Notes: generated by a model from the letters alone, not told the origin. 11,979 bases of DNA from Amoebophrya sp. A120 (GCA_905178155.1 CAJINV010000064.1:3346-15324); one strand, 5' to 3'. Counted from the first letter of the stretch, positions 1-11,979 are shown. A program made the numbers and translations.

Positions 1-821
1 ATGCATGGGCCCAACATTGACCCGAGCATCTTTTTCTTCAAAAAGGCGAACATAATTCTATCCGTATATTACAGCTAGAGATGTTGAAGTTGCGGCAAGT
101 AGAGCGCGGCGCGTACTGATGACAGAACAAACCTTGTTCTGCGCTTAGTGAAATCGCACGAGAAAAATATGGACAAAATATTTAAGGAAAGAAGCCGGTG
201 CTGGCACTTATGTGAGGTAAGAAATAAGAAATGAACTAAGTAGAAGACGACCGCGATATTTGCCTCAAAAAGGTGCATAAAACTAAAAGGCTGGCATTTC
301 TGGGGTGTTAAATTCTATATTTGCAAAAGAAATGTCTCATCACACAAAAGCAATTCGTTGAAACAGTGATCTTCACTGCAGGTCCACCCTTGACTGACAT
401 CTCGCGAAAACTTATCGCAAAACGACAATGACAGATCTGCGTATTTTCCTACAGTTCGGTGATGGCGATATCAATCGAAGAAATGATCTCGTCGAGCTCT
501 CGCTCGGGGTTGCTTTGTCCCCCGAAGGAATACCAGGACTTGTACTACTTGACGCGAACAGGATCGAGGTCGACCAAGCACCGCGCCACCTGCGGGAACT
601 GTAGATCCAGCACAACATGGCATACCCAGATGGTCGTCGGCCCAGTGCGTATCAAAGCGTGGCTAGCGGCAGTGGTCAAAAAGATAGTGGCGCATAAGTT
701 CTAGCGAGAAGACGAACGTCGGCGGCACTATTTGTTCCTGGCTGAAATTTATCAGCAGTGTAGCCTACTGATGTGTCATCTAACGTTGTTGTAGAATGGA
801 CTGCACAAAAATAAAATAAGC

Positions 822-842
822 TGCGCGCTGCGCTTGCGCGCA
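822..842. promoter_or_regulatory. Conserved GC-rich palindrome TGCGCGC-TGCGCTT-GCGCGCA (identical copy at 7516-7536); possible cis-element
   Basis: 7-bp stem with 7-nt loop, identical in both duplicates inside an AT-rich, indel-rich spacer. Function is inferred only. Confidence 0.25.
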
Positions 843-1312
843 CGACCCTGAATCAAAATCTTTTGCAATAGCGCTTTAAAATCAAAGTGATGATAAAGTT
901 CTTCCTAGTTGTTGAAGGCTAATGGTCTTTTGTCGAAACCTTTCCCCTGTGCCCCGGCCTTGATGATAGAAGCAAGAACTGGCTTCCTCAGAGTTGCGGT
1001 AAAAAAAATTGTATATGAACGATCACGACAGGACACGACCAAAGAATAAGGCATTCTGCGGTAAAAAATCGTATAGAAAAAGCAGTGTGTAAGTGCATGT
1101 GAAATATCCTAGCTTCGACCATATCTTTTCCGGAAAGATAAGGCCGCCAAACAGAGGTCATTAGCAGCAGCAGACATCACAAGTGATATCATGGCGCAGC
1201 AGGAGCTGGATCTCTATTCAGTCTGACCACGCCGAACTGCATAAGAATGTTATGCTGTCAAAGTCCAAAAGTTCGGCGCACCAAAAAAGGTACCAATGTC
1301 AGGTGGACCGCC

Positions 1313-2793
1313 TTACCCCTGAGACGAGAAAGGGTCGTTGCTGCTGTGCTGACAAATCTGCAGCTTGCATTCCCAATTTTTCTTCGGCTTGCAGCGAATA
1401 TGCGTCATGACCGTCGGCGACTCTACGATGACAAAATGGACTTCCTCGGCGGTAACGTTCAGGAGATCCCGTATGGAAGCGTCAGGTTTGAAATCGACAA
1501 AGTTGAAATGATTTGTCATGCATAAAATGCAAGGCATGACGTACCTGTCTTGCAGGGATGGCAAATGAGGCCGACAGTCAGCCTGTTTGAGGTCTGCGGT
1601 AGGGCTGGTAAAGTAGCACGACAAAAGACGCCTTCTGTCCCTAAACAGCATGACAGACCGGATTTCGACGGTGCCTAAATTTGTCATGCGCCGCTTGAAA
1701 ATTGGGCTTCCAACTGGTATCGATTTTATGCATGACAAACTATTTCAACTTTGACGATCTCAATCCTGACACCCCCATATCCCGTGTGGCGTCGAAGTCC
1801 GTAGTGTAACGCAGGGTATCGGAGCCACTGCTCTATCAATATGAAAAAACCCCCACCCCATTCAAAAAAGGAAATATGAAAAAACCCCCACCCCATGCTG
1901 GATTTCTGTACACAAATCAGCTGTGTATAATTGCGGCAAGAGCGTGAAGGCATAATTTTTCAAGCCTGATTGAGTATGCAAAAGGCTAGCAGCTCGGCAT
2001 GACAGACAGGTGCGCGGTAGGTAAAAGCGCATGACAGATTTGCTGTCGAGTGCGGGATACGGCTCCCATTTGATGCCTCATATGCAAGACGAAGCTGATT
2101 TGTGGTCACAAATCAGCATCACAAATTTCCGTTTTGAGTAGTATGGGGAGGGGGGATTTTTTCTCAGAATATGCTCGAGGTAGAATGAACTCCACCGTCG
2201 CTGTAGGCGTACCGCCCCTGAAATTTTTTCTTGTGCCATATGCATCGCAAAAATGTCTGGGTCTGGAAGGTGGATCCAAACTTGTAATGCTGTCTTTGGA
2301 TTCTCAAAAGATCTGTAGTGCTATGACCAGGAAGAGGAGCCCAGATTGTGCTACGCGGAGAGGGCATTTGCCATGCGGAATAGGCATTAGGATGCCTTCC
2401 AAAAATCTGTGATGCTAAGTCATGCACTACAGGCATCATGCGTCATGCAAAATATGCATGACAAACCTGGCAATCTTCCACACCCAGACATAGTTGCATT
2501 TGATATGCCGCAACGTGATGCGATCGCCCGTCCGGCGGCTGCGACCACGAACAAGAACGTCGGGGTCATAATCGGGGTTCGAAACAAACAACCTCGGGTA
2601 GTACGCACTTGGATTATCCTCTCGCACGACTTGCTCCAGAAAGCGGGCCCGGGAGGTTGCGCTCATGTCTGGCCCATGTAATCCGTCATCTGCCCATACG
2701 TCGTTGTGCACAGCAATGAAGGACTCGCCCTGCGCACTCAGGCTGCCACCGTGTGGAAGGGTGATTCCAGCAGCGCTTGTCGGGGGGCTTTCG
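1313..2793 (-). CDS. 3' part of a hypothetical protein, paralog of the 8176-10525 gene; exons 2793-2506, 2233-2172, 1828-1780, 1466-1313; 5' part lost at the assembly N
   Basis: Removing 272, 343 and 313 nt (element plus one TSD) joins ORFs 2436..2960, 2164..2439 and 1313..1738 in frame: ESPPTSAAGITLP...GDRITLRHKKKFQGRYAYSDGGVHSTSSSGSDTLRYTTDFDATRDLLNVTAEE...NDPFSSQG*. This is colinear with the paralog, with several synonymous changes (GTA/GTT, GCG/GCA, GCC/GCA, ACT/ACC, ACG/ACT, GTC/GTT) and only in-frame indels. Confidence 0.85.
1472..1779. mobile_element. 308-bp TIR element (MITE/introner-like), family B; putative non-canonical intron
   Basis: 57-bp TIRs (49/57 match) TATGG...TTTGTCATGCATAAAAT. 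5-bp TSD TCCCG at 1467-1471 and 1780-1784. The paralog shows the empty site GACA-TCCCG-TGTGG near 8339. Confidence 0.95.
1834..2171. mobile_element. 338-bp TIR element, family C (C-rich TIR); putative non-canonical intron
   Basis: TAT...ATA ends and degenerate TIR (AAAAACCCCCACCCCAT / ATGGGGAGGGGGGATTTT). TSD TGCTC at 1829-1833 and 2172-2176. Empty site CCAC-TGCTG-GAGG near 8388. Internally similar to 5370-5691. Confidence 0.93.
2239..2505. mobile_element. 267-bp TIR element, family A (ATGTCTGGGTCTGGAA TIR), inverted relative to the other family-A copies; putative non-canonical intron
   Basis: ~31-bp imperfect TIRs and TAT...ATA ends. TSD TGCCA/TGCCG at 2234-2238 and 2506-2510. Empty site CCTG-TGCCG-CAACG near 8450. 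Confidence 0.93.
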
Positions 2794-2794
2794 N
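2794..2794. other. Single N: assembly gap or contig junction
   Basis: The left side matches up to 8749 (mid-gene) and the right side abruptly matches 101/6808. ORFs that cross it (2436..2960, 2665..2925) are chimeric. Confidence 0.85.
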
Positions 2795-3208
2795 AGAGCG
2801 CGGCGCGTACTGATGACAGAACAAACCTTGTTCTGCGCTTAGTGAAATCGCACGAGAAAAATATGGACAAAATATTTAAGGAAAGAAGCTGGTGCTGGCA
2901 CCTATGTGAGGTGAGAAAGAAATGAACTAAGTAGTAGACGACCGCGATTTTTGCCTTCAAAAGGTTGATAAAACTAAAAGGCTGGCATTTCTGGGCTGTT
3001 AAATTCTTATTTTCAAAAGAAATGTCTCATCACACAAAAGCAATTCGCTGAAACAGTGATCTTCACTGCAGGTCCACCCTTGACTGACATCTCGCGAAAA
3101 CTTATCGCAAAACGACAATGACAGATCTGCGTATTTGTCCTGCAGTTTGGTGATGGCGGTATCAATCGAAGAAATGATCTCATCGAGCCTTCGCTCGGGG
3201 TTGCTTTG
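2795..3208. repeat. Third copy of the conserved segment 101-517 / 6808-7225
   Basis: AGAGCGCGGCGCGTACTGATGACAG ... CGCTCGGGGTTGCTTTG aligns throughout, with more substitutions and small indels than between the other two copies. Confidence 0.93.
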
Positions 3209-4412: not shown

Positions 4413-5957
4413 TCAAGAACGCATTAAAGCAAGTTGCGTCCTCATACAGATCCAGTAGAGCTGCGCATCTGTTTCCCAGCAGACCAGTGTCACTTGGTGT
4501 GCCTGATTTGGACACGACAAACTATTTTTATAAACAGCAAATATAGCAAAAAAACCGAGGGCCAGGTGTTTGGTTCCACATGTCATAAGGGACAGCCCAT
4601 CGTCGTCAAGGTCGGTTAGATAGTCGTGCACGATGGTGTATGGATGTGTATACGTGTCTGGTCCTAGAACGAGTCATCCAAGCTGCATTATCAACCGCAA
4701 ATATGTCTGGGTCTGGGAGATTGCGAGATAGAGATTTGTCATGCATGTCTAGCATGACTCTGAACTTTGTATTGCGCGGCCGCAAAGAGCTCCTCTTGCC
4801 TGTCATGCAAACACGCAGTTTCTCATGCGCCGGTGTACGCAACTCAGAACCACGGAAAAACTTGTCATGCTTGGCAGCGCATCAGAGTCTGCTCATCTTG
4901 CATCACGACAAATCTCCAGAACCAGACATATTTGCATTCGATATGCATACGAAATACGCGATGAAATCGCAAGAAGCGCCCTTGTGCCAGGCGACAGTGG
5001 TCGCGTTGACTTGTATACAGAGGTGCCCGTGCGCGTGCCCAAACAAGAAACTATATTTTCCGGCGTGGCGCTCGTGCTGCAAAACAAATTAGAAGCGCTT
5101 ATACTGAAACATCAACGATTACGATGCCTTACTGACCATGACTTTATGCTATAGCCCTTTTCATCATCAGAACTAGGGTCGCCGGGACAAACAAGCAAAT
5201 TCTGCTCGTAGAAAACTCTGCAAATTCAAAAATAAATAGTAAACCCTTCGTCGAATAACGCGCTCAAAGCAATGTAGCTCACATCCCAGACACGTATACA
5301 TGGAACGGTCGATAGCACCTGGATCGGGTGGTCCACGCCTCGCTGCCCCAAACTCACACGAAGTGCAACTATTGAGAGGAAAAAACCCCCCTCCCCATAT
5401 CAAAACGGATTTTGTGATGCTGGATTTGTGTACACAAATCAGCTTTGTATTGCAGGAAGGCATTGCAGCCAGTTCCCCAGGCTAGCTAGGGGCGTGTCGG
5501 TCTAGTTGTTCAGCATGGCAAACGGCCCCCCTTTAGGCCCAACAGCATGACAAATCGCCTCCATAATGGGGGCGAAGCTTTTGCCCTTGTCTTCTTGCAA
5601 GACAGATGTGATTTGTGACCTCAAATCAGCAACACAAATTTTCGGAAACGTGCCTTTTCGATATGGGGAGGGGGGATTTTGCCTCACAATAGCAACATAC
5701 CGAAGTTTATCTGCGACTAACGGAAGAACAACCGGGGCTCGGTCATTCTCATCATAAATGCTTGTTGCATAGAAAAAACCATCTGCTCCCGCCGGTCTAG
5801 CGCTTGCAGGTGAAACCGTCGCCAGAGCTTTCTCGATCCCTGCCAGCATCCACTGAAAGCAAGTTTTCTGACACTCACTCTCAGGCGCGATAAGGTCTTC
5901 TAAACGTGGCAGGCTGACAGAGTTGGGCAGAGAAGCAGCACGGATGAAAGAGGGCAT
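4413..5957 (-). CDS. Hypothetical protein (~176 aa if it ends at 4413); exons 5957-5692, 5364-5315, 4627-4413
   Basis: Removing 327 nt (element 5370-5691 plus TSD) and 687 nt (outer element 4633-5314 plus TSD) joins ORF 5502..6002 to ORF 4413..4631 in frame: MPSFIRAASLP...ADKLRYVALRVSLGQRGVDHPIQVHDYLTDLDDDGLSLMTCG. The start and the true 3' end are uncertain. Confidence 0.55.
4633..5314. mobile_element. Degenerate outer TIR element hosting a nested family-A copy
   Basis: Perfect 15-bp inverted repeat TGTATACGTGTCTGG at 4647-4661 and 5286-5300. Each arm lies exactly 14 nt inside a 4/5 direct repeat, GCACG (4628-4632) and GCACC (5315-5319). The right end is ...GATA and the left terminus is eroded. 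Confidence 0.6.
4689..4943. mobile_element. 255-bp family-A TIR element (nested)
   Basis: TIRs TATCAACCGCAAATATGTCTGGGTCTGG / CCAGAACCAGACATATTTGCATTCGATA. TSD TGCAT at 4684-4688 and 4944-4948. Internally similar to 9674-9929. Confidence 0.93.
5370..5691. mobile_element. 322-bp family-C TIR element; putative non-canonical intron
   Basis: 32-bp TIRs TATTGAGAGGAAAAAACCCCCCTCCCCATATC (3 mismatches). TSD GCAAC at 5365-5369 and 5692-5696. Confidence 0.93.
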
Positions 5958-6275
5958 TACAATGAAAAATGCCCCCAGCCCAGAACTTGGGAGCATTTGC
6001 ATCGCAAACTACCTCTCCAATGGAAATAGTCGCAGTCTTGCATGTATCAGCATCACAAATTTTCAATCGTGAACAGTGCAAATCTGTATTGCAAAAGATC
6101 CCAGCAAGAGCAGGGCTTGTCATGCAAGCGATGCTGTATACGACTACTTAGCACTAGACTCCGCATCAGAAAGATTCATAGTCCTTTCATGCAAGACAAA
6201 GAGTTTTCATTTGGAAACGTCGCATCACAAATTGAAATTATTGCAACTTTCTGGGTGGGTGCATTTTTCACTGTA
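5958..6275. mobile_element. 318-bp TIR element, family D, with TAC...GTA ends and no clear TSD
   Basis: TACAATGAAAAATGCCCCCAGCCCAGAA pairs with TTCTGGGTGGGTGCATTTTTCACTGTA. It contains GCATCACAAAT twice and TTGTCATGC. The flanks GGCAT/AAAAT match only 2/5. It abuts the minus-strand ATG at 5957. Confidence 0.8.
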
Positions 6276-6707
6276 AAAATTCGTGTGCAGCAGCAATGTC
6301 GACAAAATAAAGGTATAAAATTTGAAAAATCAACGGGAGAAGTTTTTGAGAAACTTCGTTTAGATTGTTGAAATGCCTGTTGAAAAATTATGTTGAAAAT
6401 TACACCTGCTTGTTCTGAGCGATAACTTGGCTGCGTCCATCCGATAGGACGAGGAGATCGAGCTACACGCCATTATCACATGGTGACCCCTGCTGCTCTT
6501 GTTCAATTTTCCATTTCATTAGATCCGTACCAAGAACAACCTGCACGGTTTTGGCTTATTTCTGTACATCTTCTTCACAGAATCATTTTTTCTCACCCGG
6601 CGGACAGGCTCGAGGTTGACGCGAACAGGATCGAGGTCGACCAAGCACCATGGAAAAAGATCGGGCCACAGCGTTCGCCGAGTTCCCGCAGGTTGACGCT
6701 GAATAAG

Positions 6708-8749
6708 ATGCATGGGCCCAACATTGACCCGAGCATCTTTTTCTTCAAAAAGGCGAACATAATTCTATCCGTATATTACAGCTAGAGATGTTGAAGTTGC
6801 GGCAAGTAGAGCGCGGCGCGTACTGATGACAGAACAAACCTTGTTCTGCGCTTAGTGAAATCGCACGAGAAAAATATGGACAAAATATTTAAGGAAAGAA
6901 GCCGGTGCTGGCACTTATGTGAGGTAAGAAATAAGAAATGAACTAAGTAGTAGACGACCGCGATATTTGCCTCAAAAAGGTGCATAAAACTAAAAGGCTG
7001 GCATTTCTGGGGTGTTAAATTATATATTTGCAAAAGAAATGTCTCATCACACAAAAGCAATTCGTTGAAACAGTGATCTTCACTGCAGGTCCACCCTTGA
7101 CTGACATCTCGCGAAAACTTATCGCAAAACGACAATGACAGATCTGCGTATTTGTCCTACAGTTCGGTGATGGCGATATCAATCGAAGAAATGATCTCAT
7201 CGAGCTTTCGCTCGGGGTTGCTTTGTCCCCCGAAGGAATACCAGGACTTGTACTACTTGACGCGAACAGGCTCGAGGTCGATCAAGCACCGCGCCACCTG
7301 CGGGAGCTGTAGATCCAGCACAACATGGCATAGTCGTCGGCCCAGTGCGTATCAAACCGTGGCTAGCGGCAGTGGTCAAAATACATAGCGCATAAGTTCT
7401 AGCGAGAAGTAGAACCTCGGCGGTGCTATTTTTTGGCTAAAAGTTACCAGTAGTAGCCTACTGATGTGCTGTCTAAGGTTGTTGTAGAATGGACTGCACA
7501 AAAATGAAATCAAGCTGCGCGCTGCGCTTGCGCGCACAACCCTGAATTATCGAAATTTTTTGCAATATTGCTTTCAAAATTAGCAAAGTGATGATAGAGT
7601 TAAATTTTTTCTATAAGAAGGTGCGGTTGTACATGCTGTTGCAAGGTGCGTTTATGTACATGCTGCTACTCGGGTTTCCAAAAATCGGACCTACAACGTT
7701 GTATCGAAGTATAGTATATGCACAACAGCTACTGCTGCGTCAGCGCCGAACAGCAGCTACTATACTTCGATTAGTTGTTCAAAGCTGTGATAGGTTTTTT
7801 GTCGAAACAACCTTTCCTATGTGCCCCGGCCTTGATGATAGAAGCACGTGCTGGCTTTCCTGCGGTTTAAAGAAATGCACATAGAAACGATCGCGTTCGC
7901 GCCACAATCGAGGAATAAGGCATTCTGCAATAAAAAAATCGTATACGTCGAAAGCTGGCGTGTATGCGTAATCTAATATCCTAGCTGGGATCATATTCTT
8001 TTCCGGAAAGATAAGGCCGCTAGCTGAAGGATATTGGCAGCAGCAGACATCACAAGTGCTATTATCAGGGTCCCGCAGGACCTGCAGCTCCATTTAGTCT
8101 GACCACGCTGAGCTGCACAGCAAATGTTATGCTGTCGAAGTCCAAAATGTAGTCGGTGCACCATCGAAAAAAGGGTCAATTCCTGCCTTGACCCTGCGAA
8201 AAAGGGTCGTTGCTGCTGTGCTGACAAATCTGCAGCTTGCATTCCCAATTTTTTCTCGGCTTGCAGCGAATATGCGTCATAACCGTCGGCGACTCTACGA
8301 TGACAAAATGGACTTCCTCGGCGGTAACGTTCAGGACATCCCGTGTGGCGTCGAAGTCAGTGGTGTAATGCAGGGTCTCGCCGCCACTGCTGGAGGTAGA
8401 ATGAACTCCACCGTCGCTGTATGCGTACCGCCCCCGAAATGTGCGCCTGTGCCGCAACGCTATGCGATCGCCCGTCTGGCGGCTGCGATCGCCCGCGGGA
8501 CGAACACGGGCGTCAGGGTCATAATCGGGGTTCGAAACAAACAACCTCGGGTAGTATGCACTTGGATTATCCTCTCGCACGACTTGCTCCAGAAAGCGGG
8601 CCCGGGAGGTTGCGCTCATGTCTGGCCCATGTAATGATCCGTCATCTGCCCAAACGTCGTTGTGCACAGCAATGAAGGACTCGCCCTGCGCACTCAGGCT
8701 GCCACCGTGTGGAAGGGTGATTCCAGCAGCGCTTGTCGGGGGGCTTTCG
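6708..8749. repeat. Segmental duplication copy B (paralogous to 1-2793); homology probably extends beyond both alignable ends
   Basis: Direct alignment to copy A. It lacks the three elements of copy A and has ~165 extra nt at about 7602-7770. Confidence 0.95.
7702..7772. mobile_element. 71-bp miniature TIR element / hairpin
   Basis: Perfect 14-bp inverted repeat ATCGAAGTATAGTA at 7703-7716 and 7758-7771. Ends are TAT...ATT and the flanks are CGTTG/AGTTG (4/5). Copy A has a single AGTTG near 907 and no insert. Confidence 0.6.
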
Positions 8750-10525
8750 GTCGCCGTTCCTGCCTCGTGACCCTCCAGGCGGGGGCCAACGGTCCCACCT
8801 CGTTCGCGCGCTCCTTGGATGAGCGGCCGGAGCTTTTCGCGCAAAATGTTCGCAGAAAGCCAGCTCGGCATGACGTCGCCGTGGATCATCACTGCGTGCG
8901 CGATCTCGTCGTCCGGAGCCTCTATCCTGAGTAAAAACGTACCCACACCAGAGTTGTAATGCAGATTTGCAAAGACAGGAAGACTTGTAATGCGCATCCC
9001 CATGAGAGCCATTTCCAATCCTGTTTTGGAATTTGTGATGCTGTGAACAGGACGAGCAGATGAATCTGTGATGCGGCTGCACTTGCTGACCTGCACTACA
9101 CTGCATAGTGCAACTTGTCATGCGTGACTCACAAAACTCCTAGGTTTGTGTTGCAAAATCCCCATCCTGACTCTGGTGTGGGTACGTTTTTACTCAGGAT
9201 AGCCTCGGCGAGCAGGTCATAAAAGTCTTCCACCGTACAAGAAAACAGTCCCTCTGCTACGAAAGGATAATGGCCGGGGGCTCTATCGGTGCCAGCAGTC
9301 GCTTTATTGTACCAGTTTTGCAAATAATTCTTCGTCTTATTTTCCACAAACTTCCGACTCGCCTTGCTTGCGGCAGCAAGGCTTGAGGTTGCGTCAGTCC
9401 CCTCTGGGCCTAGACGGTGTTTCCGCTTCAGAACTTTCTGCAGCATGGTGTCTCTCGTCGCGGTGCCAAGATGAGCATCGGTAAGAACAGCTCGGCTTCC
9501 TCGTGTACCACTATCGGCACTGTGGCCAGCAGCGCGCACGATTTCCGCAGCTTGCAGCCACTTCTGAGAAACCGCCGGACGGATTGTGCCCGGGTCGGCC
9601 GCCACCACAGCCGCCTGCTTGGTCTTTGCGTGGTGGCTTTCGAGGTTTTCCACAGTTGCTTTGCGGTCGGCTTTATGGAATGCAAAAATGTCTGGGTCTG
9701 GAAGAGTGCATGTTTGTCATGCTTGGCTGGCATGACTCTTAAATCTGTCATGTACTTTACCCAAGAGCCCCATTTTTCTGTCATGCAGAAACGCAGTTTG
9801 TCATGCAGAAGAGGCAACACCTAGAAGCAAGCTCAAAAACTTGTCATGCTGAGCCAGGACTTGCGGCCTCCTCATGATACGCCACCCAGCATCACAAGTT
9901 TCCAGACCCAGACATATTTGCAATGCATAGGCTTTTTGATCGAAGGAGCCCGACGCGACCCCATTGCCGGCCAAGAACGAATAAACCCGGTCCCAGGCGT
10001 ATCAAATGTGAAAATGTCTGGGTCTGGAAGAATTCATGTTTGTCATGCTTGTCTGGCATGACTCTTAAATCTGTCATGCACGTTACCCAAGAGCTCCGCT
10101 TCTCTGTGATGCAGAAGCGCAGTTTGTCATGCAGAATAGGCAACACCTAGGAGCTCTGAAACTTGTCATGCTGAGCCAGCATTTGTAGCCTCATCATGAG
10201 ACGCTACCCAGCATCACAAGTTCCCAGACCCAGACATTTTTACTTTTGATAAGGCGTAGTCTGGCAGGGGACCTTCCGCGCCGCTCGTGCTGGGTGTCAA
10301 AGAAGTACTGCTGTCGTGTTCGAGGACCACATCGTCGGTAGCTTTGGGAGGTGCGCCTGCACCAGCTCCCGCAAGAGACTCCTGCGCCGTTTGAAGGTTG
10401 TTCACCTGCTGCTGCCCGTCAGTGCTTCTGGTGTGCGACGAGTCGCTGGAGGCCGATGCGGCGACCAGGACAGATTTGGTGCTCCATAGAAGCAGGAGCG
10501 CCCGAGATGCCAGTGCGTGCTTCAT
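8176..10525 (-). CDS. 515-aa hypothetical, probably secreted protein; exons 10525-10252, 9994-9930, 9668-9202, 8917-8176
   Basis: Removing 257, 261 and 284 nt (each element plus one TSD) gives 1548 nt with no internal stop. Junctions read PLPDYA|WDRVYSFLAG, SFDQKA|DRKATVENLES and FYDLLAEA|PDDEIAH. The ATG sits in AAAATAATGA context. The N-terminus MKHALASRALLLLWSTKSVLVAASA is signal-peptide-like. The C-terminal part is conserved in the paralog. Confidence 0.88.
8923..9201. mobile_element. 279-bp TIR element, family E; putative non-canonical intron
   Basis: Perfect 32-bp TIR TATCCTGAGTAAAAACGTACCCACACCAGAGT. TSD GCCTC at 8918-8922 and 9202-9206. Confidence 0.96.
9674..9929. mobile_element. 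256-bp family-A TIR element; putative non-canonical intron
   Basis: 30-bp TIR TATGGAATGCAAAAATGTCTGGGTCTGGAA (3 mismatches). TSD GGCTT at 9669-9673 and 9930-9934. Confidence 0.96.
10000..10251. mobile_element. 252-bp family-A TIR element; putative non-canonical intron
   Basis: TIR TATCAAATGTGAAAATGTCTGGGTCTGG / CCAGACCCAGACATTTTTACTTTTGATA. TSD AGGCG at 9995-9999 and 10252-10256. Confidence 0.96.
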
Positions 10526-11389
10526 TATTTTTGAATCTGCAAGAGACACGGGCTTCAGGCGTGTGTATGTTGCAGTCGAATCAATGATGAAAATGAAATT
10601 GTACGCAGCAAACTACTGGGACTAGTAGATAAAAGGAAAAACAAAATTTTTCAGCAAGGCCGACAAGTTAAAGTTTTCTAAATCAAGTACATTGAATCTT
10701 GATATCGTGTGCGGAAATGTCGAAAATATTGTATCAACTAAGAAGTAGAAATTGCATTGTTTGTAGAGTTTGAAATAAAATATCGTATAAAAAAAACATG
10801 GAAGATGAGGTTGAAAAGCTTCGATGCAGCTAATCTTCGCCTGTTGAAAAAAATATTGCATTTTGACGTTCCAGCACTGGAAACATAAGCAAAAAATCCC
10901 GCTACAACTTCTACACGCTGACCAGCCCATGCTGGCGCTTGTTCCAACTTGCATTTTTGTAGATCCACATCCGTATTTCGACAGCTACAAGCCTGATTGT
11001 GCAGTCTTTAATGAAGTCTACAGTTCCATCTTTATCCCGATGAAAATATTAACCGACGCTTGTTCGTCATGTTGTAGTAGGAGTAGTTTCTTCATGATCT
11101 TCCCATTACTTGGAGGAGTTTCAACCGCATCTAGCGTTTTTACAACGTGCTAGTACAACAACCTCTTCGTTTTGGTTTTTGATCCAGCTTTCGTGATAGG
11201 AAAAGAAACTTTGTGGTACTTCTTTCAGTCGCCGTCACAAAACACAGCGAGCTCGTCGCAACGAGGTGGCTGCAAGCGTGCTGCAGTGGTCCCTCCAAAT
11301 GATAAAAGGGGGCTGTAATAAGAGCTGGCATCTGTATTGCTGATTTGCTTTTCATTGTCCGAAACGGAAACGGTTCTCCTTGATACCAA

Positions 11390-11641
11390 AATGAAATGTA
11401 AAAATGTCTGGGTCTGGAGGACTGCATGTTTGTCATGCTTGTCTGGCATGACTCTTAGATCTGTCATGCACGTTACCCAAGAGCTCCATTTTTCTGTGAT
11501 GCAGAAACGCAGTTTGTCATGCAGAATAGGCAACACCTAGAAGCTCAGAAACTTGTAATGCTGAGCCAGCACTTGTGGCCTCATCATGAGACGCCACCCA
11601 GCATCACAAGTTTCCAGACTCAGACACTTTTACATTTGATA
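11390..11641. mobile_element. ~252-bp family-A TIR element with an altered left terminus
   Basis: Closely colinear with 10000-10251. The right end is ...TACATTTGATA, but the left end reads AATGAAATG instead of TATCAAATG. A direct repeat ATACCAAAATGA lies at 11383-11394 and 11641-11652. Confidence 0.92.
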
Positions 11642-11979
11642 TACCAAAATGACGCAAGGGTCTTTTGCCTTAAGCAGCACGACCAGCTGCAGTGGCAATT
11701 GTTAATAGACTCTCAGTCACATCTACTTCTCAAGGGCAGGATAACATCTCAGCAACTTGCTACTGTCATCCGAAACACAATACATATAAAATTATTGTCG
11801 GTGCAGCATATTAAATAGCCCAGTACGACCTCGTACAAGGGCATATTTTCATCTTGACGTTCAGGTCAGTAAAGACTTCAGCCCCCACTTTGCTGCACCC
11901 GGTTCATGTGCTGATTTTCTATCTGCGCTACCATTTTATTTCCCAGCTTTTCCTCTTCTGGGTTTTTCTCTTCCTCGCG

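What the first reader, a model, noticed from the sequence alone, without database searches (positions are those of the whole stretch)
8176..10525. A gene that reads only if TAT...ATA / 5-bp-TSD transposons are removed precisely: a non-GT-AG introner system
Seen: three TIR elements interrupt the gene, and deleting each with one TSD copy (257, 261, 284 nt; two not multiples of 3) gives an uninterrupted 515-aa ORF. The same rule works for three inserts in the paralog and two in the neighbouring gene, eight in-frame joins in total. The sense-strand TSDs (CGGGA, GAGCA, CGGCA, GAGGC, AAGCC, CGCCT, GTTGC, GGTGC) never offer AG|GT, so precise removal cannot use GT-AG; only 8923-9201 could be GC-AG. 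Known: introners are transposon-derived introns, and Amoebophrya has abundant non-canonical introns with terminal inverted and short direct repeats. Inference: the termini or hairpin, not spliceosomal dinucleotides, define excision here. Removal could be at RNA level or by programmed DNA elimination as for ciliate IESs.
Basis: partly seen in the sequence, partly recalled or inferred. Interest (0 to 1): 0.92.

Follow-up and report, generated by a model that had tools for sequence, protein, structure and literature searches.

The report
Known Amoebophrya transposon-derived introns
Three small hairpin-ended transposons interrupt a gene of the plankton parasite Amoebophrya and are missing, to the base, from likely transcript sequence without normal GT-AG splice signals; this intron class and this gene's exon layout are already published, and the machine that likely cuts them from the RNA is still unknown.

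Summary
Three TAT...ATA elements with 5-bp target duplications interrupt the gene, and removing each with one duplicate gives a 515-aa frame. The window is Amoebophrya sp. A120: public model CAD7975454.1 matches this protein across all three joins. The elements fit the published A120 introner motif (Farhat 2021, PMC7789003). Contigs of four probable RNA runs (one sample, RNA status guessed) skip exactly 284, 261 and 257 nt. A DNA-like run keeps elements 1 and 2 joined to their exons. An open frame alone proves little, since removing any transposon with its duplicate restores the old allele. In a second, related assembly, 105 of 124 copies have exact 5-bp duplications, GT-AG is possible no more often than chance, and both orientations occur. 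So the element ends likely define excision; a U1-less relaxed spliceosome is likeliest (about 0.6), and DNA elimination is unlikely. One listed TSD (GGTGC) was not found. This scan found the same system before on other pieces of this genome (12 notes). Already known; interest low.

The parts
10252..10525 (-). Exon 1 (ATG at 10525) of a 515-aa orphan protein gene; exon edges are ambiguous within each 5-bp duplication
10000..10251 (.). Introner 1, 252 bp, TAT...ATA, TSD AGGCG at 9995-9999 and 10252-10256; 257 nt removed
   Evidence: (joint 9994 to 10252, short side only 23 nt)
9930..9994 (-). Exon 2
9674..9929 (.). Introner 2, 256 bp, same family as introner 1 (88% over 241 nt), TSD GGCTT at 9669-9673 and 9930-9934; 261 nt removed
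   Evidence: (joint 9668 to 9930)
9202..9668 (-). Exon 3
8923..9201 (.). Introner 3, 279 bp, different TIR family, TSD GCCTC at 8918-8922 and 9202-9206; 284 nt removed; the only one that could be GC-AG
   Evidence: (joint 8916 to 9201)
8176..8917 (-). Exon 4 with stop codon; holds the empty sites of the paralog's three inserts
1313..2793 (-). 3' part of a paralog, cut by the N at 2794, carrying three other introners
1472..1779 (.). Introner in paralog, sense TSD CGGGA; ends lack the AAA run
1834..2171 (.). Introner in paralog, sense TSD GAGCA
2239..2505 (.). Introner in paralog, imperfect TSD CGGCA/TGGCA
5370..5691 (.). Introner in neighbouring gene, sense TSD GTTGC
4689..4943 (.). Introner in neighbouring gene, sense TSD ATGCA (not GGTGC); in frame only with two inferred short GT-AG introns (5218-5244, 5104-5136)

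Best explanation
These three inserts are the already described introner elements of Amoebophrya A120: short inverted-repeat transposon copies with 5-bp target duplications that are likely cut out of the pre-mRNA together with one duplicate, probably by a relaxed, U1-less spliceosome guided by the element's own ends. Shown here: the anatomy, the 515-aa frame, identity to the public gene model across the joins, exact skips in probable-RNA contigs, element-bearing contigs in a DNA-like run, and no dinucleotide requirement in the flanks. Inferred: insertion by an unidentified transposase making a 5-bp staggered cut; removal at RNA level; recognition of the symmetric TAT-N7-AAA ends, either as a hairpin that brings both cut sites together or through a bound protein that replaces U1; and catalysis by the spliceosome. 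I put RNA-level introner removal at about 0.92 and the spliceosome as the catalyst at about 0.6.
For: Identity: P0002 (CAD7975454.1, A120) is identical to the in-silico spliced protein at 506 of 515 positions, including all three junction peptides; paralog P0001 is identical at 483 of 515 with no gap at the joins. Motif: the paper gives A120 inverted repeats as TAT + 7 nt + at least AAA, with 3-5-nt direct repeats and mean length 240 nt; 16 of 16 ends here start TAT and 11 of 16 fit the full motif. Removal: joints 8916 to 9201, 9668 to 9930 and 9994 to 10252 appear in 4 of 4 probable RNA runs. One 525-nt X4 contig bridges joint 8916-9201 with 124 nt and 0 differences on the right. Its left-side variants (8765, 8789, 8803, +CCA at 8800) are shared with an X1 contig that runs into the element instead. 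Summed depth on element bins is 5e4-6e5 against 29-165 on other bins in X1, but 2-662 against 13-197 in X3/X4. Ends, not flanks: in a second assembly, 105 of 124 copies delimited by TIR alone have an exact 5-bp repeat and none has 6-9 bp; TSD base use is near even. GT-AG is possible on either strand for 15 of 103 against 10.7 expected, p 0.10. Flank reading frames join in phase in 30 of 45 same-strand pairs out of 73 tested, p 5e-6, and orientation to the inferred coding strand is 14 versus 13. All 8 intact elements fold into long terminal stems (no shuffle control). The paper reports 83 of 89 spliceosomal proteins and U2, U4, U5 and U6 in A120, with U1 undetected.
Against: The RNA status of X3, X4, X5 and X7 is the tool's guess; they are one sample, and contigs rather than reads. 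They also cover upstream and downstream DNA (30 of 30 bins). Joint 9994-10252 has only 23 nt on its short side, under the 31-letter bridging standard. Contigs joined at 9668-9930 and 9994-10252 differ from the window by 8-19 and 9 substitutions, so they come from paralogs; splicing of this exact copy at those two sites is less directly shown. P0002 shares a 3-residue gap with paralog P0001 that the window's frame lacks, so the model may have been guided by a paralog's transcript. Only 15 of 179 joints were shown, so element-less DNA in X1 is not excluded. In one search, 28 of 73 flank pairs gave discordant strands, and the six-frame openness test barely discriminated (68 versus 62-65 of 73). 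Nothing here tests spliceosome involvement; indifference to orientation and dinucleotides fits a non-spliceosomal enzyme as well.
Confidence: 0.9

Rival explanations
1. Same RNA-level removal, but by a non-spliceosomal cut-and-ligate system (endonuclease plus ligase, or a transposase-derived protein) that reads the terminal hairpin, as suspected for euglenid nonconventional introns.
For: No dinucleotide constraint, both orientations used, strong terminal stems, U1 undetected. The paper itself says the mechanism should differ from the ubiquitous machinery (passage).
Against: A nearly complete spliceosome is retained and 35% of A120 introns are GT-AG. Spliceosome relaxation is the reported explanation in Fritillaria and other dinoflagellates (review passages). 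No candidate enzyme was sought here.
Confidence: 0.3
2. The elements are not removed from this copy: it is a dead or disrupted copy, and the joined contigs come from paralogs with empty sites.
For: Precise removal restores the old allele of any insertion. The family has at least three copies with different insert sets. Contigs at two of three joints are paralog-type.
Against: At 8916-9201 the same variant set has the element in X1 and lacks it in the probable RNA runs. Contigs with 0 differences to the window are joined at 9201 (X5, X7) or leave the alignment at 10252 (X4, X5, X7). X1 shows one contig over 9410-9597, and it enters the element. The frame has no stop, and the paper counts 29,850 such repeated introns.
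Confidence: 0.06
3. Programmed DNA elimination removes the elements from a somatic or stage-specific genome, like ciliate IESs.
For: The anatomy (TIR plus one repeat removed) is what a precise excision would leave, and the runs lacking the elements are only guessed to be RNA.
Against: X1 keeps exon-to-element contigs. The paper defines these introns from RNA-seq against genomic DNA. Element-bearing contigs persist in the probable RNA runs, as unspliced RNA would give. No paper in the library holds both 'Amoebophrya' and 'programmed DNA elimination'. I recall no nuclear dualism in this parasite (recalled, not from a call).
Confidence: 0.03
4. Ordinary GT-AG or GC-AG splicing at sites near the TIRs, leaving or removing a few extra codons.
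For: In-frame GT-AG or GC-AG pairs exist within 30 nt of the ends for elements 8923 and 9674; 8923-9201 has an exact GC-AG register.
Against: None exists for 10000-10251. The observed skips are exactly 284, 261 and 257 nt, and 79 of 103 copies in the second assembly have no GT/GC/GA-AG register on either strand.
Confidence: 0.02

Closest known systems
Introner elements / non-canonical introns of Amoebophrya sp. A120 (Farhat et al. 2021, PMC7789003; read abstract, passages, sections 10, 11, 12, 16, 20, 25, supplement text parts 2-3 of 5; figures not visible)
   Same: Same organism; TAT-N7-AAA inverted repeats, 5-bp direct repeats, about 250-340 nt, hairpin fold, no fixed splice dinucleotides; this gene's model with the three joins is public (CAD7975454.1).
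   Different: Nothing essential. The paper gives repeats of 3-5 nt and calls the elements strain-specific; here the repeat is exactly 5 bp for the family tested, and close copies (up to 96%) occur in a second, non-identical assembly.
TIR DNA-transposon introners in general (Gozashti et al. 2025, PMC12130899, passages read; it assigns many A120 introners to TIR DNA transposons)
   Same: Non-autonomous TIR elements with TSD that become introns on insertion.
   Different: In Micromonas the element and TSD supply real splice sites (review PMC11282704, passages); here they do not.
Fritillaria borealis non-canonical introns and euglenid nonconventional introns (known only from passages of review PMC11282704; primary papers not read)
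   Same: TIR/TSD-bearing introns with non-GT-AG ends; euglenid ones pair their ends.
   Different: Fritillaria keeps AG-A(N) preferences and euglenids a pyrimidine|purine rule; no flank rule was detected here.
Ciliate internal eliminated sequences (recalled, no call)
   Same: Transposon-derived inserts removed precisely with one terminal repeat.
   Different: IESs are removed from DNA with a TA repeat; here the repeat is 5 bp of any sequence and DNA-like data keep the elements.

Membership tests
Amoebophrya A120 introner elements | Host genome is Amoebophrya A120 | tested here: met
   P0002, named Amoebophrya sp. A120, identical at 506 of 515 residues
Amoebophrya A120 introner elements | Terminal inverted repeat starting TAT, 7 free bases, then at least AAA | tested here: met
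   16 of 16 ends start TAT, 11 of 16 fit fully; 5 of 6 ends in the three target elements
Amoebophrya A120 introner elements | 3-5-nt direct repeat at the boundaries | tested here: met
   5-bp repeat perfect in 7 of 8 elements, one mismatch in the eighth
Amoebophrya A120 introner elements | Repeated across the genome | tested here: met
   13,102 X1 contigs laid, depth concentrated on the elements; family copies within the window
Amoebophrya A120 introner elements | Absent from transcripts, with non-GT-AG ends | tested here: met
   Exact skips in 4 of 4 probable RNA runs of one sample; no GT-AG register. RNA status is a guess and the third joint has a 23-nt side.
Non-autonomous TIR DNA transposon (MITE-like) | TIRs, fixed-length TSD and empty sites with one TSD copy | tested here: met
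   105 of 124 with exact 5 bp, 0 with 6-9 bp; 3 of 3 empty sites in the paralogous gene
Non-autonomous TIR DNA transposon (MITE-like) | Cognate transposase with matching ends | not tested
   No whole genome held; the paper found no transposase in A120
Spliceosomal intron | GT/GC-AG or AT-AC ends | tested here: not met
   Only 1 of 8 has such a register (GC-AG)
Spliceosomal intron | Lariat with 2'-5' branch, dependence on U2/U5/U6 | not testable with these tools
   No raw reads covering the exons
Ciliate-type IES (DNA elimination) | Element-less DNA in a somatic or stage-specific genome | tested here: inconclusive
   X1 keeps exon-element contigs and none of the 15 joints shown (of 179) is an exon-exon join; one DNA-like run, life stage unknown

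The most novel reading that the evidence does not exclude
The elements are excised from RNA by a non-spliceosomal machine that reads only the symmetric terminal hairpin, works in either orientation and ignores all flanking bases. This would make transposon insertion into exons harmless and let the same element families spread across more than one Amoebophrya lineage.
Probability: 0.27. Interest if true: 0.85.

Novelty: already known. Interest (0 to 1): 0.24.

Why it matters
How Amoebophrya removes tens of thousands of introns with no fixed splice dinucleotides is a real open question: the 2021 paper and a 2024 review leave it open, and searches listed no paper that settles it. This locus is one more instance, already annotated. 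It adds three modest points: the duplication is exactly 5 bp of any sequence, the elements seem to work in both orientations, and close copies occur in a second lineage. These constrain mechanisms but do not make the question much more testable than the published catalogue does.

Tried and rejected
No whole genome was held, and the contigs behind the second-assembly loci were not held either, so genome-wide and transposase searches were not possible. No listed holder run is on record as RNA. The GGTGC element was sought three ways and not found. Pfam gave nothing at cut-off for 4 exon pieces, the atlas had no hit at 0.9 or above, and a protein search with the neighbouring gene's first exon found nothing at similar lengths. 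The host protein's function is therefore unresolved; the N-terminus looks like a signal peptide by eye only. A six-frame openness test was too permissive to use. The fixed cut 'one base before, four after' from earlier notes could not be confirmed. GT-AG at that register was 7 versus 4.3 expected, p 0.12. The window's imperfect TSD at 2239-2505 is compatible with it. In L156 the A120 homolog has K, which needs at most 3 upstream TSD bases kept, where that rule gives R; this is one non-RNA point from another lineage and a conservative change, so mildly against and inconclusive. Table S4's nine commonest A120 motifs all have T second, which fits the rule but may reflect aligner bias. Look-ups of earlier findings by place and by sequence were empty.

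Full report
Observation. A scan for 5-bp repeat + TAT...ATA + repeat found 7 elements, all with terminal inverted repeats (18-30 of 30 bases), and none with 6- or 7-bp repeats. A relaxed scan added 2239-2505 with one TSD mismatch. In 500 Markov resamples the pattern with a TIR never occurred. Removing 8923-9201, 9674-9929 and 10000-10251, each with one repeat, gives a 515-aa ORF (10525 to 8176, minus strand); the 7 other subsets stop early. No element has a GT-AG register for exact removal, and one has GC-AG. The paralog's three joins are in frame. The listed TSD GGTGC was not found. The neighbour's second insert is 4689-4943 (ATGCA), and that gene reads 235 aa only if two short GT-AG introns, which I picked by ORF search, are also removed.

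Why the frame alone is weak. About a fifth to a third of nearby deletions keep the frame (702-1227 of 3721). The paralog's inserts correspond to empty sites with one TSD copy in this gene (3 of 3). That proves transposition with a 5-bp duplication, but it also means exact removal must restore the old frame whether or not the cell ever does it. Transcript evidence was needed.

Identity. The last exon found one longer relative, P0001, named Amoebophrya sp. A120. Its cluster holds P0002 (CAD7975454.1), identical to the spliced protein at 506 of 515 positions and across DYAWDR, FDQKADRK and LLAEAPDD. The gene and its three introns are therefore in the public annotation, which was built from transcript alignments (section 25). 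P0002 shares a 3-residue gap with P0001 and has another C-terminus, so a paralog's transcript may have guided it. Farhat et al. 2021 (PMC7789003) describe A120 introners with inverted repeats starting TAT, seven free bases and at least three A, direct repeats of 3-5 nt and hairpins, 29,850 copies. They report 66,565 RNA-supported introns, over 60% non-canonical, and U1 undetected. Here 16 of 16 ends start TAT and 11 of 16 fit the full motif. The supplement's figures S19-S25, which show repeat positions, could not be seen; only their legends.

Sequencing runs. Eleven runs were listed, none of the holders on record as RNA. In four probable RNA runs of one sample, contigs join 8916 to 9201, 9668 to 9930 and 9994 to 10252, skipping 284, 261 and 257 nt, in 4 of 4 runs. 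Short sides were up to 124, 72 and 23 nt, so the last does not meet the 31-letter standard. Contigs at the latter two joints carry 8-19 and 9 substitutions and belong to paralogs. Contigs with no difference to the window are joined at 9201 (X5, X7) or leave the alignment at 10252 (X4, X5, X7). A further paralog is joined at the same first site. In X1, which looks like DNA (longest contig 95 kb, 13,102 contigs laid), contigs run from exon into element at 8941, 9189 and 9700. The one reaching 8941 shares three substitutions and an insertion with the joined contigs of X3 and X4. Summed depth on element bins is 5e4-6e5 against 29-165 elsewhere in X1, but 2-662 against 13-197 in X3/X4; this is no copy number, only a contrast. 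Against: X3/X4 cover all 30 bins including flanks, only 15 of 179 joints were displayed, and raw run X9 did not cover the exons.

Second assembly. A TIR pattern retrieved 157 loci, all from one assembly. Of 207 anchors, 124 distinct elements had a partner end by TIR score alone. Of these, 105 have an exact 5-bp repeat, none has 6-9 bp, and TSD bases are near even. Copies are up to 96% identical to 10000-10251. One flank encodes a protein only 83% identical to its best A120 match, so this is likely a related lineage; the protein stays collinear across the join. Among the 103 with ATA ends and perfect TSD, exact removal could be GT-AG on either strand in 15 (10.7 expected, p 0.10) and GT/GC/GA-AG in 24. 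With a codon model trained only on the window's gene, 73 elements had 99-nt flanks. In 45 both flanks chose the same strand, and 30 of those were in phase (p 5e-6). Of 27 that could be oriented, 14 lay one way and 13 the other. Strand calls are imperfect (28 of 73 discordant), so this is moderate evidence.

Mechanism. Insertion is likely by a cut-and-paste transposase with a 5-bp stagger; the enzyme is unknown, and the paper found none in A120. Removal is likely from pre-mRNA and takes the element plus five repeat bases. Because flanks are unconstrained and both orientations occur, the signal likely lies in the symmetric ends, which fold into long stems. I favour a relaxed spliceosome in which the paired ends or a bound protein replace U1 (about 0.6), since the rest of the spliceosome is retained and relaxation is reported in other TIR-intron systems (review passages). 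A non-spliceosomal enzyme is the main rival (about 0.3). Empty-site paralogs (0.06) and DNA elimination (0.03) are minor. The cut position within the repeat is not determined here. Earlier notes of this scan claim one base before and four after; my three small checks were neutral, compatible and mildly contrary.

Literature and verdict. Searches listed no paper settling the mechanism or reporting DNA elimination; most subscription papers, including Roy et al. 2023, are outside the library and were not read. PMC12130899, PMC11282704 and PMC11453091 were seen as passages. The scan holds 12 notes of the same system on other pieces of this genome, 8 shown. The feature is real and odd, but already known down to this gene model. 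Interest 0.24.

Noticed in passing
L001-L157: A second assembly carries the same element families (up to 96% identical), yet a flanking protein is only 83% identical to its best A120 match; the paper calls the elements strain-specific.
   Followed up: partly
window 11384-11652: Copy of the 10000-10251 family (92%) with an altered left end (no TAT) flanked by an 11-bp direct repeat instead of 5 bp; possibly an imperfect repair at insertion. Whether it lies in a gene was not checked.
   Followed up: no
window 5957-6276: Decayed TIR element with no recognisable TSD just upstream of the neighbouring gene's first identified exon; informative for the cut rule if it is still spliced.
   Followed up: no
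window 5104-5136 and 5218-5244: Two inferred very short GT-AG introns (33 and 27 nt) in the same gene as two introners.
   Followed up: partly
window 1-2800 versus 6708-8750, and 2795-3208: Recent segmental duplication (1-300 identical to 6708-7007) with an N at 2794; the gene family has at least three copies, and P0001 looks like a mosaic of the two window copies.
   Followed up: partly
all ten elements in the window: A shared internal motif (TGTVATG or its complement) occurs 42 times in 2855 element bases against 7 in 9124 outside, across unrelated TIR families; candidate binding site for a common transposase or splicing factor.
   Followed up: partly
L015, 390 bases beside the match: An element of this family abuts an exon that looks like a SNF2-type helicase C-terminal domain (by eye); a conserved gene useful for junction tests.
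   Followed up: no
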